This document shows positions 3,527 to 33,625 of a DNA stretch of 64,000 nucleotides, in pieces. The DNA is taken from IMG/VR virus record IMGVR_UViG_3300045988_129382, positions 32,001-96,000 of that record. The stretch is one strand, 5' to 3'. Made by a program: the position numbers and the translations under genes. Position 1 is the first letter of the stretch. The number at the start of each line of letters is the position of its first letter. Under the pieces are notes generated by a model. That model was given only the letters and a program-made list of their open reading frames with translations. It was not told the DNA's origin and made no database searches. Source of the DNA: a virus.

Positions 3527-3718
3527 ATGGACAGTATTTCTACAAGTGTATTAGATGTATTACAGCGTTTAGGGATTGAATATATCAGACGAGATGAAAG
3601 TAATAATTACTATATGGTAACAGATGGTGGTGAAAAGATTTCATGTGATGAATTCTTTAGGGTTGTTTGTATGCATGTGTTACAGGGTAGTGAAGAGATG
3701 TATGTAGATAAGAAATAG
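3527..3718 (+). CDS. Hypothetical protein (63 aa)
   Basis: Strong SD (GGGGGGAG) 5 nt upstream of the ATG. The ORF ends just before a terminator. Confidence 0.65.
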   Translation: MDSISTSVLDVLQRLGIEYIRRDESNNYYMVTDGGEKISCDEFFRVVCMHVLQGSEEMYVDKK

Positions 3719-3723
3719 TTTAA

Positions 3724-3762
3724 AGAGGTAGTTAAAAGAGGTAGTTAAAAGAGGTAGTTAAA
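3724..3762 (+). repeat. Three perfect tandem copies of the 13-bp unit AGAGGTAGTTAAA
   Basis: Read directly: units at 3724-3736, 3737-3749 and 3750-3762. Each copy carries the left arm of the downstream terminator stem. Confidence 0.95.
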
Positions 3763-3777
3763 ACCTACCTCTTTTTT
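3750..3777 (+). terminator. Intrinsic terminator
   Basis: Stem AGAGGTAG (3750-3757) pairs with CTACCTCT (3765-3772), with a 7-nt loop, followed by a T-run. Confidence 0.8.
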
Positions 3778-3786
3778 ATTTAATAC

Positions 3787-3815
3787 TTTACAATACTTTA
3801 CACCTATGTTATACT
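3787..3815 (+). promoter_or_regulatory. Sigma-A-type early promoter (TTTACA-17-TATACT)
   Basis: TTTACA at 3787-3792, an exact 17-nt spacer, TATACT at 3810-3815. The spacer contains a second ACTTTACA box. Confidence 0.65.
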
Positions 3816-12605: not shown

Positions 12606-12649
12606 TATTAGTTGTTATTTAGTTGTTAATATGGTTATATAAATAATAG

Positions 12650-12679
12650 TTGTACATTCTTTCTAGAAAGTTGTATAAT
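12650..12679 (+). promoter_or_regulatory. Sigma-A-type promoter (TTGTAC-18-TATAAT)
   Basis: TTGTAC at 12650-12655 and TATAAT at 12674-12679, with TG immediately upstream of the -10. Confidence 0.55.
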
Positions 12680-12685
12680 AAAAGT

Positions 12686-12839
12686 GTATTATTCTTATGA
12701 AGTGTGAGAATAACGACTGCACAAGTAGAAGTAGTGAAGCGTATGTTTATTATCTTAGTTGTAGGGAGCAAGTTTTAGCCGATTACAATGATGATGGATA
12801 ACAAAAGCATAACGAAACGAAAGGAGGCCGTTCTAATCT
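12686..12839 (+). promoter_or_regulatory. Long (~150 nt) 5' leader of the 3D-domain gene
   Basis: This untranslated stretch lies between the promoter and the SD. It looks more GC-rich than its surroundings. It contains a UUAUUCU/AGAAUAA hairpin and a 34-codon ORF (12697-12801) that has no SD. Confidence 0.4.
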
Positions 12840-20767: not shown

Positions 20768-20798
20768 TAGGACGTAGTGTATGCTACGTCCTATTTTT
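20768..20798 (+). terminator. Intrinsic terminator after the tube gene
   Basis: TAGGACGTAG pairs with CTACGTCCTA (10-bp stem, 6-nt loop), followed by TTTTT. Confidence 0.85.
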
Positions 20799-20808
20799 GT
20801 GTTATAAT
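20798..20808 (+). promoter_or_regulatory. Extended -10 promoter element TGTGtTATAAT fused to the terminator T-run
   Basis: Exact match to TRTGnTATAAT. The same CTATTTTTGTGTTA junction recurs at 22108 and 33079. Confidence 0.5.
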
Positions 20809-20887
20809 GTTTGTGTGTGGTTTCATACTTATCTTTATGTGTTCTCATATTAAGGAGTTTATGAGGTTAAGGTGGATTCATTGGTTA

Positions 20888-21023: not shown

Positions 21024-21052
21024 TTTACATATTGTTTTTCTTGTGGTATATT
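21024..21052 (+). promoter_or_regulatory. Promoter TTTACA-17-TATATT with a TGTGg extension
   Basis: TTTACA at 21024-21029, a 17-nt spacer ending in TGTGG, TATATT at 21047-21052. Confidence 0.6.
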
Positions 21053-21058
21053 GTATGT

Positions 21059-21305
21059 AGTAGATGAGAGTGGTTACTCATCTATTATATGTAGGTGATT
21101 GCGTTACATCTACATATACCTCCCTTTTTACTGTTACGTTTGTTTATTTCCTTTCGTAGCGTAACAGTAAATTTACATATTGTCTTTCTTATTGGAAAAA
21201 TTAGGTTTTTCATGATAAGTATGCTTTGTTGCATATATTTTTCTCCGTTAGAGTGTTACATTGATTACTTCGGCTCTTATCAATGTAACACTCTTTTTCT
21301 TTTTG
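21059..21305 (+). ncRNA. Candidate ~245-nt structured sRNA
   Basis: Promoter at 21024. Perfect hairpins at 21061-21084 (8 bp), 21086-21118 (9 bp) and 21129-21169 (10 bp). Exposed ACCTCCCTTTTT at 21118-21129. A 16-bp terminator stem follows. There is no SD-preceded ORF. Confidence 0.45.
21250..21305 (+). terminator. Very strong intrinsic terminator
   Basis: AGAGTGTTACATTGAT (21250-21265) pairs with ATCAATGTAACACTCT (21279-21294) in a 16-bp perfect stem with a 13-nt loop, followed by TTTTTCTTTTT. Confidence 0.9.
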
Positions 21306-22081: not shown

Positions 22082-22116
22082 TAGAGATAGTAATACTTTT
22101 TACTATCTCTATTTTT
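22082..22116 (+). terminator. Intrinsic terminator
   Basis: TAGAGATAGTA pairs with TACTATCTCTA (11-bp stem, 8-nt loop), followed by TTTTT. TGTGtTAATTA follows directly. Confidence 0.85.
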
Positions 22117-22212
22117 GTGTTAATTATTAAATTGTTATATAGTATATATACAGTTAGGTAGTTTCATTACAATTTAGATAGTTTTTTATTATACAAAAGA
22201 CGAGGTTTTAAA

Positions 22213-32096: not shown

Positions 32097-32912
32097 ATGG
32101 CTATAAATAGTAGTGATTTTTATGGTAGTCTACAAGCCCCTACAGAGTTAGGTGGTATATTTCGAGCTAGGGTTGAGAATAATGTAGACCCATTGGGTAT
32201 TGGTAGAGTACAGGTACGTGTACCCATGATACATCGAACTGTTGCTAGTGGTGGTACCGCTACAGAATCACTTCCGTGGGCAAGCTATTGCTCTTCTATT
32301 GGTGGTGGCTATAACTATGGTTCGTTTATTGTACCTGAGATAGGTGAGTATGTATGGGTGATGTTCGAGGATATGGACTCAAATAAACCTGTATATTTGG
32401 GTTCTGTGTTTGGTACTGATTCTACATTAGAGAAGAGATATGGTAGTGAGAAGACTACTGGTATTTGGAATGGTGTAGTTGGTGCTAATGAAGTTCCTCT
32501 TGAATCTCAACGTGAATCTCCTACTCATAAGATGATTTACAAATCGAGACATGGTTCTATGATGTACTTCGATACAGATGAAAAAACAAATTCAGTAGGT
32601 ATCGAAGATGCTAATGACCAAAAATTCAAGATTTCTTCTGCTGAGGGTAAAGTGTTTACTCTCATGGAGGGTGAAAATAGTGTATTAGTTAAGATACATG
32701 ATGGTAAAATTGATATAGGATATGAAGGTGGTAGGGGTATTCAAGTTATACCTGATAGTGGTGATATTGTGTTAAAAGCAAGTGGTGCCACTATTACGTT
32801 ATCTGATTCTATCACTATGAAAGCTGATAGTGTTAATGTTAAGTCTAGTTCATTTAAGGTTAATTCTAACAGTATTCGTATGCAAGCTGGTAGCATTAAG
32901 ATTATAGAATAA
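32097..32912 (+). CDS. Baseplate central spike (gpV / gp5 OB-fold like)
   Basis: DPLGIGRVQVRVPMIH...LPWA...PEIGEYVWVMFEDMDSNKPVYLGS is the gpV/VgrG N-terminal OB-fold signature. The C-terminus has beta-strand repeats. Confidence 0.75.
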   Translation: MAINSSDFYGSLQAPTELGGIFRARVENNVDPLGIGRVQVRVPMIHRTVASGGTATESLPWASYCSSIGGGYNYGSFIVPEIGEYVWVMFEDMDSNKPVYLGSVFGTDSTLEKRYGSEKTTGIWNGVVGANEVPLESQRESPTHKMIYKSRHGSMMYFDTDEKTNSVGIEDANDQKFKISSAEGKVFTLMEGENSVLVKIHDGKIDIGYEGGRGIQVIPDSGDIVLKASGATITLSDSITMKADSVNVKSSSFKVNSNSIRMQAGSIKIIE

Positions 32913-32919
32913 ATACCTA

Positions 32920-32948
32920 TTTACATATATGGGTTTATATGTTATACT
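32920..32948 (+). promoter_or_regulatory. Sigma-A-type promoter TTTACA-17-TATACT
   Basis: TTTACA at 32920-32925, exactly 17 nt of spacer, TATACT at 32943-32948, starting 8 nt after the spike stop codon. Confidence 0.65.
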
Positions 32949-32954
32949 CTTTGT

Positions 32955-33088
32955 ATAGTTAAGTTTTTCTTTTCATTTTTCTTAACTATGGGGAGTTCTC
33001 CGAAAAGAACTCCCCGCTCCTTTCGATATAACATAATACAATCCTTAAAATAGCGTACACGTTTTATATATGTGTACGCTATTTTTTG
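32955..33088 (+). ncRNA. Candidate ~130-nt sRNA between the spike and gp25-like genes
   Basis: The unit runs from a promoter to a terminator with no SD-preceded ORF. Hairpin ATAGTTAAG/CTTAACTAT lies at 32955-32989. A GC-rich 10-bp hairpin GGGGAGTTCT/AGAACTCCCC lies at 32990-33015. GCTCCTTTCG is exposed. Confidence 0.45.
33050..33087 (+). terminator. Intrinsic terminator
   Basis: ATAGCGTACAC pairs with GTGTACGCTAT (11-bp stem, 11-nt loop), followed by TTTTTT. TGTGtTAATTT follows directly. Confidence 0.85.
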
Positions 33089-33145
33089 TGTTAATTTCAC
33101 TATATGAATTAATTATATATTAATGGGAGAGGTATAGGTGATAAT

Positions 33146-33625
33146 ATGGCTTTTTATTATAATGAGGAATTTAAAGATACAATAGCTGGTAGTGGATTAT
33201 CCCTATCAAAAACATTTAAACAGAATTTACGAGATGGTAAGGGTATAACAAATGTAATTAGTGGGGAAGATAAGATTAATGAAAGTATCTACACTATACT
33301 ATCTACAAGGGTTGGGGAGAGGTTTTTTCTTCCTGAATTTGGTAGTCGGTTACATTTAGTTGTATTTGAGCAAAATAGATTTGTAGCACATGATTTAGTT
33401 TCAATTTACGTGAAGGAAGCTTTAGGGAATTGGGAGAAAAGAATTGTTGTAGAGGATGTTAGTATTGGGAATAATTGGGAAGATTCAAATATCGTACCAG
33501 TACATATAACATATAGGTTAGCTAATAGTAATATCATAGGTTCATACGTATACCCATTTAATAGGACGATTGATGGTGTAGATATGTATGAATTCGGTGG
33601 TGCTGTTAGTACTACATCATACTAG
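33146..33625 (+). CDS. Baseplate wedge protein, gp25/GPW-like
   Basis: INESIYTILSTRVGERFFLPEFGSRLHLVVFE...EALGNWEKRI matches the GPW/gp25 signature. Confidence 0.8.
   Translation: MAFYYNEEFKDTIAGSGLSLSKTFKQNLRDGKGITNVISGEDKINESIYTILSTRVGERFFLPEFGSRLHLVVFEQNRFVAHDLVSIYVKEALGNWEKRIVVEDVSIGNNWEDSNIVPVHITYRLANSNIIGSYVYPFNRTIDGVDMYEFGGAVSTTSY

What the first reader, a model, noticed from the sequence alone, without database searches (positions are those of the whole stretch)
32913..33145. Second promoter-to-terminator unit without an ORF, inside the baseplate operon, carrying a GC-rich hairpin and an anti-SD motif
Seen: eight nt after the spike stop codon there is a TTTACA-17-TATACT promoter (32920-48). 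It is followed by hairpin ATAGTTAAG/CTTAACTAT with a 17-nt U-rich loop (32955-89). Next comes a GC-rich 10-bp perfect hairpin GGGGAGTTCT-CCGAAA-AGAACTCCCC (32990-33015), which stands out in this AT-rich genome. An unpaired GCUCCUUUCG follows, complementary to the AAAGGAGC-type SDs. The unit ends with an 11-bp terminator plus T6 (33050-87). The only ATG-initiated ORFs are 9 and 21 codons long and have no SD. Reading the minus strand from the apparent AAGGAG gives no start codon. Inference: this is a ~130-nt sRNA, or a transcription attenuator gating the gp25-like/J-like baseplate genes. Its design (sigma-A promoter, hairpins, exposed CUCC motif, terminator) parallels the 21.06-21.31 kb unit.
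Basis: partly seen in the sequence, partly recalled or inferred. Interest (0 to 1): 0.7.

Follow-up and report, generated by a model that had tools for sequence, protein, structure and literature searches.

The report
Conserved small non-coding RNA gene in phage
Between the tail-spike and baseplate genes of an uncultured ~205-kb phage lies a real, conserved gene for a ~130-nt structured non-coding RNA with its own promoter and terminator; it exposes a sequence identical to the ribosome's mRNA-docking tail, so it most likely blocks translation of target mRNAs, but no target has been found.

Summary
Positions 32920-33087 hold a TTTACA-17-TGtTATACT promoter, two hairpins, an unpaired CGCUCCUUUC, and a strong intrinsic terminator.

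It is more than chance:
- 19 distinct versions occur in about 50 metagenomic contigs of two phage clades.
- They keep the -35, TG, -10 and spacing while the spacer sequence drifts.
- All three helices are kept through compensatory changes: 97.9% of cells paired, 8 pairs changed on both sides, 49 G.U cells against 1 A.C. The plus-strand RNA is therefore what is selected.
- CGCUCCUUUC is invariant and no reading frame is kept.

The unit is a lineage-specific insertion. More distant relatives have the spike and gp25 genes adjacent. Six divergent lineages keep a T4-late-like TATA(A/T)A(A/T) box 30-35 nt before the gp25 start, so the baseplate operon has its own promoter. The attenuator reading is therefore disfavoured.

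My reading is an early-class, stand-alone sRNA, a non-coding "moron" that shares the spike operon's terminator, and it probably masks Shine-Dalgarno sequences. The same UCCUUUC motif sits unpaired in two other non-coding units of this phage group.

There is no Rfam family and no homologue in cultured phages or bacterial genomes. Target and expression are unproven.

The parts
32097..32912 (+). Upstream gene: spike/hub protein with a Phage_base_V OB domain. Its transcripts would end at the same terminator, so the RNA sequence is also this operon's 3' UTR.
   Evidence: ORF. Pfam PF04717, E = 1.7e-14.
32920..32948 (+). Promoter: TTTACA (-35), 17-nt spacer, TG at 32940-41 (extended -10), TATACT (-10).
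   Evidence: The same class occurs at 3787, 11633, 13274, 21024 and 32920, all intergenic and all on the plus strand. In 18 variants the -35, TG, -10 and spacing are constant while the spacer sequence differs.
32953..32956 (+). Predicted transcription start (purine 5-8 nt after the -10). The RNA would begin at the foot of hairpin 1.
   Evidence: Inferred from promoter geometry. Not measured.
32955..32989 (+). Hairpin 1: a 9-bp stem (32955-63 with 32981-89) and a 17-nt U-rich loop. The loop core CUUUUCAUUU is nearly invariant.
   Evidence: 100% of cells paired. The fourth pair changes G-C to A-U in the second clade, and the closing pair is G.U, G-C or A-U. Nucleotide diversity is 0.013, against roughly 0.02-0.09 in most flanking coding windows.
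32990..33015 (+). Hairpin 2: a 10-bp stem with loop CCGAAA. Its sequence varies freely but the pairing is kept.
   Evidence: All 16 variants fold into a 9-11 bp hairpin. Six of ten pairs change on both sides. Diversity is 0.097, at the upper end of the flanking coding windows.
33015..33024 (+). Invariant CGCUCCUUUC. The first C closes hairpin 2 and the rest is single-stranded. CUCCUUUC equals the 3' tail of 16S rRNA, so it is complementary to GAAAGGAG-type Shine-Dalgarno sequences. This is the proposed seed.
   Evidence: Invariant in all 19 distinct variants. Predicted unpaired probability is about 0.9 in the window's RNA and roughly 0.3-0.9 across the motif in the second-clade RNA. The identity with the 16S tail rests on established knowledge of the 16S 3' end.
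33016..33046 (+). Single-stranded linker between hairpin 2 and the terminator.
   Evidence: Partly conserved (AUAU..AC..A), and shorter in the second clade.
33047..33087 (+). Intrinsic terminator: AAAAUAGCGUACAC / GUGUACGCUAUUUU stem with a T6 tail at 33082-87. It ends both the RNA and the upstream late operon.
   Evidence: 16 pairs. 100% of cells paired, with A-U changing to U.G and G.U changing to A-U between clades.
33088..33145 (+). Not part of the RNA. This is the leader region of the baseplate operon: GTGTTAATTT (33088-97), a TATATATT box (33114-21) and the AGGTGA Shine-Dalgarno (33137-42).
   Evidence: The TATA[AT]A[AT] box starts 30-35 nt before the gp25 start in six lineages whose intergenic DNA is otherwise unalignable. 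GTGTTAATTT is also present in L124, which lacks the RNA.
33146..33625 (+). Downstream gene: gp25-like baseplate wedge protein.
   Evidence: Pfam PF04965, E = 5.5e-16.

Best explanation
Positions about 32955-33087 are a stand-alone gene for a ~130-nt non-coding RNA. The gene sits as a self-contained promoter-payload-terminator module (a "moron" with an RNA payload) between the spike gene and the baseplate operon's own promoter.

It is read from a sigma-A-type TTTACA/extended -10 promoter. That class also drives the small-gene region at 3-14 kb, which is presumably early. The RNA starts with a 5'-terminal stem-loop and ends at the strong terminator that also closes the spike operon.

Its working part is the invariant single-stranded GCUCCUUUC, which copies the 3' tail of 16S rRNA. 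I propose that it pairs in trans with GAAAGGAG-type Shine-Dalgarno regions of phage or host mRNAs and blocks ribosome binding. The conserved U-rich loop CUUUUCAUUU may be a second contact. Hairpin 2 would be only a structural spacer.

What is shown:
- The elements exist and are conserved.
- The helices covary, and the signal is on the plus strand.
- Nothing codes for protein.
- The unit is an insertion.
- The downstream operon has a separate promoter box.

What is inferred:
- That the unit is transcribed, and where the RNA ends lie.
- Early timing.
- Action in trans and Shine-Dalgarno masking.

My confidence is about 0.85 that this is a real structured RNA gene and about 0.4 for the Shine-Dalgarno-masking mechanism. 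The overall figure of 0.5 covers the statement as a whole.
For: Promoter:
- The class is used five times, only intergenically and only on the coding strand.
- The -35, TG, -10 and 17-nt spacing are invariant while the spacer drifts.

Structure:
- MFE z = -9.2.
- On the plain MAFFT alignment 93.9% of cells pair, and 0 of 500 shuffles reach the observed covariation.
- On the model-fitted alignment 97.9% of cells pair, 8 pairs and 42 cells change on both sides, and slid controls give 35-51% paired.
- All 16 hairpin-2 variants fold.

Strand: 49 G.U cells against 1 A.C cell.

Non-coding: no frame is kept on either strand.

Seed:
- CGCUCCUUUC is invariant across two clades whose mean pairwise difference in the linker and terminator windows (all sequences pooled) is 0.15-0.26.
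- The motif is predicted largely unpaired.
- UUCCUUUCG is invariant in a hairpin loop of the separate 21-kb unit.
- GCUCCUUUC recurs next to a terminator in a third unit in relatives.

Stand-alone module:
- It is absent from relatives with 76%, 75% and 56-59% gp25 identity and from cultured relatives, where the gap is 71 nt or less.
- gp25 keeps its own TATA(A/T)A(A/T) box.

One copy per genome, found only in this phage group.
Against: - There are no expression data.
- No convincing target was found. The best partner in the window, the Shine-Dalgarno of ORF 12840 (CGAAAGGAG, -14.9 kcal/mol), shows no compensatory change for the G-to-A difference next to the seed between clades.
- Phage Shine-Dalgarno regions of the early and late blocks pair equally with the seed.
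- Only 64 kb of about 205 kb of the phage was searchable, and none of the host.
- Diversity is limited to two clades, so many covarying cells go back to few events.
- The model-fitted alignment leans towards the structure.
- A motif identical to the anti-SD could instead bind a protein.
Confidence: 0.5

Rival explanations
1. Regulated leader. Transcripts from the 32920 promoter normally stop at the terminator. A phage antiterminator, in the manner of lambda Q at pR'-tR' (whose terminated product is the lambda "6S" RNA) or of N/put RNA-based systems, lets them run on into the baseplate genes.
For: The layout is promoter, two hairpins right after the start, a terminator, then late genes. A second such unit precedes the genes after the tail tube gene.
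Against: - gp25 has its own conserved promoter-like box in six lineages, including those with only a 50-nt gap.
- The unit is absent in relatives with identical gene order.
- Nothing competes with the terminator in the folded ensemble, and its 5' arm finds no upstream partner.
- The hairpin-2 loop, the natural protein or RNAP contact, is not conserved between clades.
- The unit lies in the middle of the structural module rather than ahead of it.
Confidence: 0.12
2. A 3'-end module of the spike operon. The three hairpins serve mainly as terminator and 3'-exonuclease barrier for the long late mRNA. The promoter would be secondary, for instance a leftover or an insulator.
For: The RNA sequence is also the 3' UTR of the upstream operon. 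L124 keeps only a terminator at this place.
Against: - The promoter elements are under clear selection.
- The hairpin-1 loop and the single-stranded CGCUCCUUUC are the most conserved parts, which a passive 3' barrier does not need.
- The motif recurs in other units.
Confidence: 0.12
3. Protein-binding or decoy RNA. The conserved pyrimidine-rich loop and the 16S-tail-like motif would titrate a host or phage protein or a defence component, for example a factor that recognises the 16S 3' end, or, for hairpin 2, a CRISPR-repeat-like anti-CRISPR RNA. It would not pair with mRNAs.
For: No mRNA target was found. The conserved parts are short single-stranded motifs.
Against: - No positive evidence exists.
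- Hairpin 2 differs completely between clades, and the exact window hairpin occurs nowhere else in IMG/VR.
- No CRISPR or defence context was seen.
Confidence: 0.15
4. A small protein gene on either strand, such as the 21-codon plus-strand ORF or the 30-codon minus-strand ORF with AAGGA.
For: ORFs exist at 32988-33053 (+) and 33034-32942 (-).
Against: One-nucleotide loop indels shift the frames among near-identical phages. Both ORFs vanish in the second clade. G.U wobble tolerance fits RNA rather than codons.
Confidence: 0.02
5. A DNA-level element, such as a replication origin primed by transcription or a packaging or recombination site.
For: A promoter plus A/T-rich DNA inside a late region recalls the T4 origins oriF and oriG. 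This comparison is from my own knowledge, not from a tool result.
Against: Helices are kept through G.U intermediates on one strand only (49 to 1). The intrinsic terminator and the invariant single-stranded motif point to RNA.
Confidence: 0.03

Closest known systems
csRNAs (cia-dependent small RNAs) of Streptococcus (PMC3091779)
   Same: These are ~50-200 nt RNAs with stem-loops flanking an unpaired stretch. That stretch carries anti-Shine-Dalgarno and anti-start-codon (CAU) sequences thought to block translation initiation, and each RNA ends in an intrinsic terminator. The unit here also has an unpaired anti-SD between a stem-loop and the terminator, and a conserved CAU in the first loop.
   Different: - There is no NTTAAG-N5-TTTAAG CiaR box before the -10.
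- The csRNA nonamer [A/C]UCCUAAA[A/C] is absent. A near match, AUCCUUAAAA, exists only in one clade.
- No csRNA or other streptococcal sRNA family appears among the Rfam matches even at E <= 10.
- The CAU and the anti-SD lie in different elements, separated by a hairpin.
- The gene is phage-encoded.
C/U-rich-seed sRNAs of Firmicutes (RsaE/RoxS, RNAIII UCCC loops); comparison from my own knowledge
   Same: Exposed C/U-rich motifs in loops or linkers pair with G-rich ribosome-binding sites. Several motifs occur per RNA, as in the 21-kb unit, which has three.
   Different: There is no sequence or Rfam relationship. The motif here extends to the full 16S-tail sequence CUCCUUUC. Targets are unknown.
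Morons of lambdoid phages (promoter + gene + terminator inserted between late genes); my own knowledge
   Same: It is a self-contained transcription unit wedged between two conserved tail genes. It is absent from relatives with the same gene order.
   Different: The payload is a non-coding RNA, not a protein. The phage is a large, apparently virulent myovirus.
3'-UTR sRNAs with an internal promoter that share the terminator of the upstream mRNA (type I, e.g. MicL, DapZ); my own knowledge
   Same: The promoter lies at the end of the upstream gene (7 nt past its stop codon), and the terminator is shared with that gene's mRNA.
   Different: The promoter is intergenic rather than inside the coding sequence. 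Hfq dependence is not expected in a Gram-positive-like setting.
Lambda pR'-tR' unit ("6S" RNA) and known phage sRNAs (OOP, c4, DicF, reviewed in PMC12197685)
   Same: A short terminated transcript from a host-type promoter next to late genes. These are phage-encoded regulatory RNAs.
   Different: No Q/qut-type features were seen, and the late operon has its own promoter box. In the passages of that review I read, the examples are from phages and prophages of Gram-negative bacteria and cyanobacteria, and the term "Gram-positive" does not occur in its main text. There is no homology.

Membership tests
Any curated RNA family (Rfam 15) | A covariance-model match at or above the family's gathering score. 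| tested here: not met
   No match in the whole window at gathering thresholds. At E <= 10 on 32850-33200 the best match is 24.8 bits against a cutoff of 55 (STnc240), and these are mostly matches to the terminator hairpin.
Trans-acting base-pairing sRNA gene (generic kind) | Own promoter and intrinsic terminator, with no conserved ORF. | tested here: met
Trans-acting base-pairing sRNA gene (generic kind) | Conserved secondary structure with compensatory changes, plus a conserved single-stranded seed. | tested here: met
Trans-acting base-pairing sRNA gene (generic kind) | An identifiable target with conserved or co-varying complementarity. | tested here: inconclusive
   The best partner in the window is the Shine-Dalgarno of ORF 12840 (9 bp). 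It is conserved but shows no compensatory change. The rest of the phage genome and the host were not searchable.
Trans-acting base-pairing sRNA gene (generic kind) | A discrete transcript is detected. | not testable with these tools
   No transcriptome data were available.
csRNA family (Streptococcus) | A CiaR box NTTAAG-N5-TTTAAG placed 10 nt before the -10 (PMC3091779). | tested here: not met
   The sequence before the -10 is TTTACATATATGGGTTTATATGT, which has no such repeat, in all variants.
csRNA family (Streptococcus) | The conserved nonamer [A/C]UCCUAAA[A/C], plus anti-SD and anti-AUG in one unpaired region. | tested here: not met
   The nonamer is absent. AUCCUUAAAA occurs in one clade only and is deleted in the other. 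The anti-SD is unpaired, but the CAU lies in the hairpin-1 loop.
Terminator-antiterminator attenuator or riboswitch leader | A mutually exclusive antiterminator pairing that involves the terminator's 5' arm. | tested here: not met
   The terminator is paired with probability about 1. In RNAs cut before the 3' arm, the 5' arm finds no conserved partner.
Terminator-antiterminator attenuator or riboswitch leader | The leader is the only route of transcription into the downstream gene and travels with that gene. | tested here: not met
   A conserved TATA[AT]A[AT] box lies at -30 to -35 from the gp25 start in six lineages. The unit is absent from relatives that have the same genes.
Lambda Q-type late antitermination unit | A Q-like protein, a qut site and a promoter-proximal pause signal, in one unit ahead of the late genes. 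| not tested
   No search was made for a Q-like gene. Position argues against it: sheath, tube, tape-measure and spike genes lie upstream of the unit.
RNA anti-CRISPR (solitary CRISPR-repeat mimic) | Sequence and structure similarity to a CRISPR repeat of the host. | not tested
   The host is unknown. Hairpin 2 is not conserved between clades, and the exact hairpin is not found elsewhere in IMG/VR.
Moron (independent transcription unit inserted among late genes) | Promoter and terminator flank a payload, and the unit is present or absent among relatives that share the flanking genes. | tested here: met
   The payload is RNA, which is unusual for the term.

The most novel reading that the evidence does not exclude
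This phage group carries a small family of early-promoter-driven RNAs: the unit at 33 kb, the unit at 21 kb, and a third unit in relatives. Each displays the last 7-8 nucleotides of 16S rRNA ((C)UCCUUUC) in single-stranded form. As mimics of the ribosome's anti-Shine-Dalgarno tail, they would compete with 30S subunits for strong GAAAGGAG-type ribosome-binding sites. That would be an RNA-based way to reprogramme or shut off translation of host or early-phage messages during takeover.
Probability: 0.15. Interest if true: 0.8.

Novelty: new member of a known kind. Interest (0 to 1): 0.6.

Why it matters
In the passages of the one review I read (PMC12197685), the phage-encoded regulatory RNAs described come from phages and prophages of Gram-negative bacteria and cyanobacteria. 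Here is a well-supported candidate in a large uncultured phage whose nearest cultured relatives infect Bacillus, Streptococcus and Listeria. It has clean gene boundaries, covariation support and a sharply defined 10-nt invariant element, so it can be tested directly.

If the 16S-tail-like motif is a general Shine-Dalgarno mask, and is shared by several RNAs of the phage, it would be a new route of translational takeover. Even on the ordinary reading it adds a new RNA family and shows that morons can carry RNA payloads inside tail-gene modules. It also corrects annotation: the 233-nt gap is neither empty nor a leader of gp25.

Tried and rejected
- **Rfam.** No family at gathering thresholds or at a lax E-value.
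- **Cultured phages.** Megablast and distant blastn found nothing.
- **Exact hairpin 2 in IMG/VR.** No match. This showed that the hairpin varies.
- **Loop-plus-seed pattern in IMG/VR.** 91 stretches were returned. Among the 98 loci then searched with the covariance model, only those from this phage group matched.
- **Seed-plus-terminator pattern in metagenomes.** 72 stretches, of which 16 were real. All belong to the same two clades.
- **Same pattern in 185,579 species genomes.** 27 stretches, none real. So there is no host homologue or prophage copy at this stringency.
- **Coding hypotheses on both strands.** Rejected.
- **Hairpin 2 as a diversifying hot spot.** Rejected. Its diversity (0.097) is at the upper end of the flanking coding windows, while the rest of the RNA is well below them.
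- **Target search.**
  - duplexfold against 102 start regions was noisy and nothing stood out.
  - Complements of the loop and of the seed are not enriched in the window.
  - Early and late Shine-Dalgarno regions pair equally well with the seed.
  - The Shine-Dalgarno of ORF 12840 shows no compensatory change.
- **Pairing of the seed with the downstream GGGAG in read-through RNA.** Only 5 bp, so it was not pursued.
- **csRNA membership.** Rejected.
- **First scan script.** It timed out.

Full report
**Context**

The window is A+T-rich (30-36% G+C). All long ORFs lie on the plus strand and G/C skew is strong.

The finding lies in the 233-nt gap between two ORFs. The upstream ORF, 32097-32912, has a Phage_base_V spike/hub domain. 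The downstream ORF, 33146-33625, is a gp25-like baseplate wedge protein. Sheath and tail tube genes lie upstream at 18.4-20.8 kb.

No cultured phage is close. By protein, the nearest cultured relatives are Bacillus phage vB_BceM-HSE3, Streptococcus phage vB_SagM-GXN1, Listeria phage LIS04 and Bacillus phage SP-15, at roughly 30-44% identity. Close relatives are IMG/VR and ENA metagenomic contigs of up to 200-213 kb.

**Observation**

- TTTACA (32920-25), a 17-nt spacer, TG (32940-41) and TATACT (32943-48).
- Hairpin 1 at 32955-89.
- Hairpin 2 at 32990-33015.
- GCTCCTTTCG at 33016-25.
- The terminator at 33047-85, followed by T6.

The terminator is the strongest in the 28-38 kb scan (16 pairs). 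The 133-nt RNA folds into exactly these three hairpins at -45.6 kcal/mol, z = -9.2, and leaves the linker unpaired.

Three minor corrections apply. The G+C richness of hairpin 2 is not a conserved property. The minus strand holds an unconserved 30-codon ORF.

**Is the promoter real?**

Generic sigma-70-like matches are at chance level in this DNA. The precise class is a different matter. TTTACA-N17-TAnnnT with an upstream TG occurs five times, at 3787, 11633, 13274, 21024 and 32920. All five sites are intergenic and on the coding strand. Three of them precede small protein genes in the 3-14 kb block, which looks like an early region.

In 18 variants of the unit from relatives, the -35, the TG, the -10 and the 17-nt spacing never change, while the spacer sequence differs widely. 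That is how a used promoter evolves.

**Is the RNA structure selected?**

The search for related loci with gp25 returned 33 loci. All that cover the gap carry the unit. They fall into two clades, with gp25 at about 97-100% and about 89-91% identity.

A covariance model built from 16 variants gave these results:
- One copy per phage, and only in this phage group, among 99 sources.
- 16 more copies among 72 metagenome pattern hits.
- None among 27 pattern hits in bacterial genomes.

On the plain MAFFT alignment, 93.9% of cells pair and no shuffle out of 500 reaches the observed covariation. On the model-fitted alignment, which leans towards the structure, the figures are:
- 97.9% of cells paired.
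- 8 pairs and 42 cells changed on both sides.
- Slid controls at 35-51% paired.

The individual changes are as follows:
- **Hairpin 1** swaps G-C for A-U at its fourth pair.
- **The terminator** swaps A-U for U.G.
- **Hairpin 2** runs through G-C, G.U and A-U series within the first clade. In the second clade it is replaced by a different A/U-rich 9-bp hairpin.
- All 16 hairpin-2 variants fold.

Wobble pairs are strongly one-sided, with 49 G.U cells against 1 A.C cell. The plus-strand RNA is therefore what is conserved, not the DNA and not the minus strand.

No ORF on either strand keeps its frame.

Within the first clade, most flanking coding windows have a nucleotide diversity of about 0.02-0.09. 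Hairpin 1 with its loop is at 0.013, the linker at 0.02 and the terminator at 0.017. Hairpin 2 is at 0.097, the upper end of the flanking range. So selection acts on the loop, the linker and the terminator sequences, and on hairpin 2 only as a helix.

CGCUCCUUUC is invariant in every variant.

**sRNA or attenuator?**

Relatives decide this question.
- In L124 (gp25 76% identical) the gap holds only a different terminator.
- In L126 (75%) the gap holds other sequence.
- In L132-L136 (56-59%) the two genes are about 50 nt apart. In HSE3 the gap is 71 nt, and in GXN1 the genes overlap.
- L128 (63%) has a different promoter-hairpin-terminator unit at the same spot. It starts with the same GUAAUUAA stem.

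The unit is therefore a lineage-specific insertion.

Independently, a TATA[AT]A[AT] box (TATAAATA in three lineages, TATATATT in the window) starts 30-35 nt before the gp25 start in six lineages. Their intergenic DNA is otherwise unalignable. Shuffles of each upstream region contain the motif with frequency 0.02-0.15. The box resembles the T4 late promoter consensus; that comparison rests on established knowledge and is an inference here.

The baseplate operon thus appears to have its own promoter downstream of the terminator. Nothing competes with the terminator helix in the ensemble, and in RNAs truncated before the 3' arm its 5' arm finds no upstream partner.

An attenuator is therefore unlikely. 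I cannot exclude a protein-mediated antitermination scheme.

**Mechanism**

The invariant single-stranded CUCCUUUC is the sequence of the 3' end of 16S rRNA, so it is complementary to GAAAGGAG-type ribosome-binding sites. The same theme recurs elsewhere in this phage group:
- The 21.02-21.31 kb unit uses the same promoter class and is conserved with covarying hairpins. It has an invariant UUCCUUUCG in a hairpin loop. In the window's RNA it also has CCUCCC and UUCUCC, and all three motifs are predicted unpaired (p >= 0.92).
- A third arrangement of that region in other relatives (L239, L256, L260, L263, L271) has the promoter followed by UUCCUUUC and GCUCCUUUC, the latter next to a terminator.
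- Two of the five plus-strand TCCTTTC sites in the window lie in these two small units.

This points to a seed function of the kind described for streptococcal csRNAs (PMC3091779) and for other C/U-rich-seed sRNAs of Firmicutes. I therefore commit to trans-acting masking of Shine-Dalgarno regions, at about 0.4 confidence.

The target search was not conclusive:
- The best partner in the window is the Shine-Dalgarno of ORF 12840 (CGAAAGGAG, 9 bp, -14.9 kcal/mol). It is conserved in both clades, but without a change matching the G/A difference next to the seed.
- Early and late Shine-Dalgarno regions do not differ in pairing with the seed.
- Only 64 kb of the phage, and nothing of the host, could be searched.

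**Comparison and novelty**

No Rfam family matches. There is no homologue in cultured phages or in bacterial genomes. csRNA membership fails on the CiaR box and on the conserved nonamer.

The unit works like a Gram-positive anti-SD sRNA. Its layout combines a moron with a 3'-UTR sRNA that has its own promoter. I rate it a new member, in effect a new family, of a known kind.

The most novel reading still open is a set of 16S-tail mimics used for translational takeover.

Noticed in passing
window 21024-21305: A second non-coding unit follows the tail tube gene, with promoter TTTACA-17-TATATT at 21024. It is conserved in relatives, with covarying hairpins (ACUGUUACG/CGUAACAGU, ACUAGUACG/CGUACUAGU, ACUAGCAUG/CAUGCUAGU) and an invariant UUCCUUUCG in a loop (21148-56). 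CCUCCC, UUCCUUUC and UUCUCC are all predicted unpaired.
   Followed up: partly
L239, L256, L260, L263, L271 (downstream of the tail tube gene homologue): These relatives have a third, different arrangement of the same intergenic region. A TTTACA-17-TATATT promoter is followed by GUGUUCCUUUCUUUUG and by UUUUGCUCCUUUCUUGC directly 5' of a terminator. The 9-mer GCUCCUUUC is thus reused in an unrelated unit.
   Followed up: partly
window 33131-33136, and L013-L021, L026-L033 just before the gp25 start: An indel hot spot lies between GGGAGAGGTAT and AGGTGAT. Relatives carry 26-29 nt or about 190 nt of extra sequence there, flanked by the direct repeat AGAGGTAT. The window looks like the deleted form.
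   Followed up: partly
L031 and L033 (before gp25); L421 (before the ORF-12840 homologue): A ~47-nt cassette, TTTACAA(A/T)TCTCATTATAG.T.TAA.TCTATAATTTGAGTAGCAG, occurs upstream of two different genes in different relatives, like a mobile promoter module. It is absent from the window.
   Followed up: partly
window 33114-33121, 18363, 15869; L124, L128, L129, L132, L135: A T4-late-like box, TATA(A/T)A(A/T), lies 25-35 nt before the starts of gp25, the sheath gene (18393) and ORF 15894. It is conserved before gp25 in distant relatives and may be the late promoter of this phage group.
   Followed up: partly
window 20795-20810, 22108-22125, 33082-33097: Three terminators in the structural region are each followed directly by TTTTTGTGTTA(A/T)(T/A)A (TGTTAAT or TGTTATAAT, which looks like an extended -10). 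L124 keeps GTGTTAATTT without the adjacent T-run.
   Followed up: no
L128 2797-3000: A relative with 63% gp25 identity has a different small unit at the same site. It consists of TTGACA-17-TATGAT, a hairpin GUAAUU...AAUUAC whose loop holds CUUUCC and GGGAG, and a terminator GCGGCAUGA/UCAUGUCG plus U6. Only the first stem resembles the window's RNA, and the covariance model does not match it.
   Followed up: partly
window about 3710-3780: Three tandem copies of a 13-nt unit (AGAGGTAGTTAAA) run into a terminator-like hairpin (GAGGTAG..CTACCTC plus a T-run). This lies just before the TTTACA promoter at 3787.
   Followed up: no
window 12606-12839: A 234-nt gap before ORF 12840 ends in AACGAAACGAAAGGAGG. 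This is the only plus-strand GAAAGGAG in the window and the best in-window match to the RNA's seed. It is conserved in relatives, and some have GAAAGGGGG instead.
   Followed up: partly
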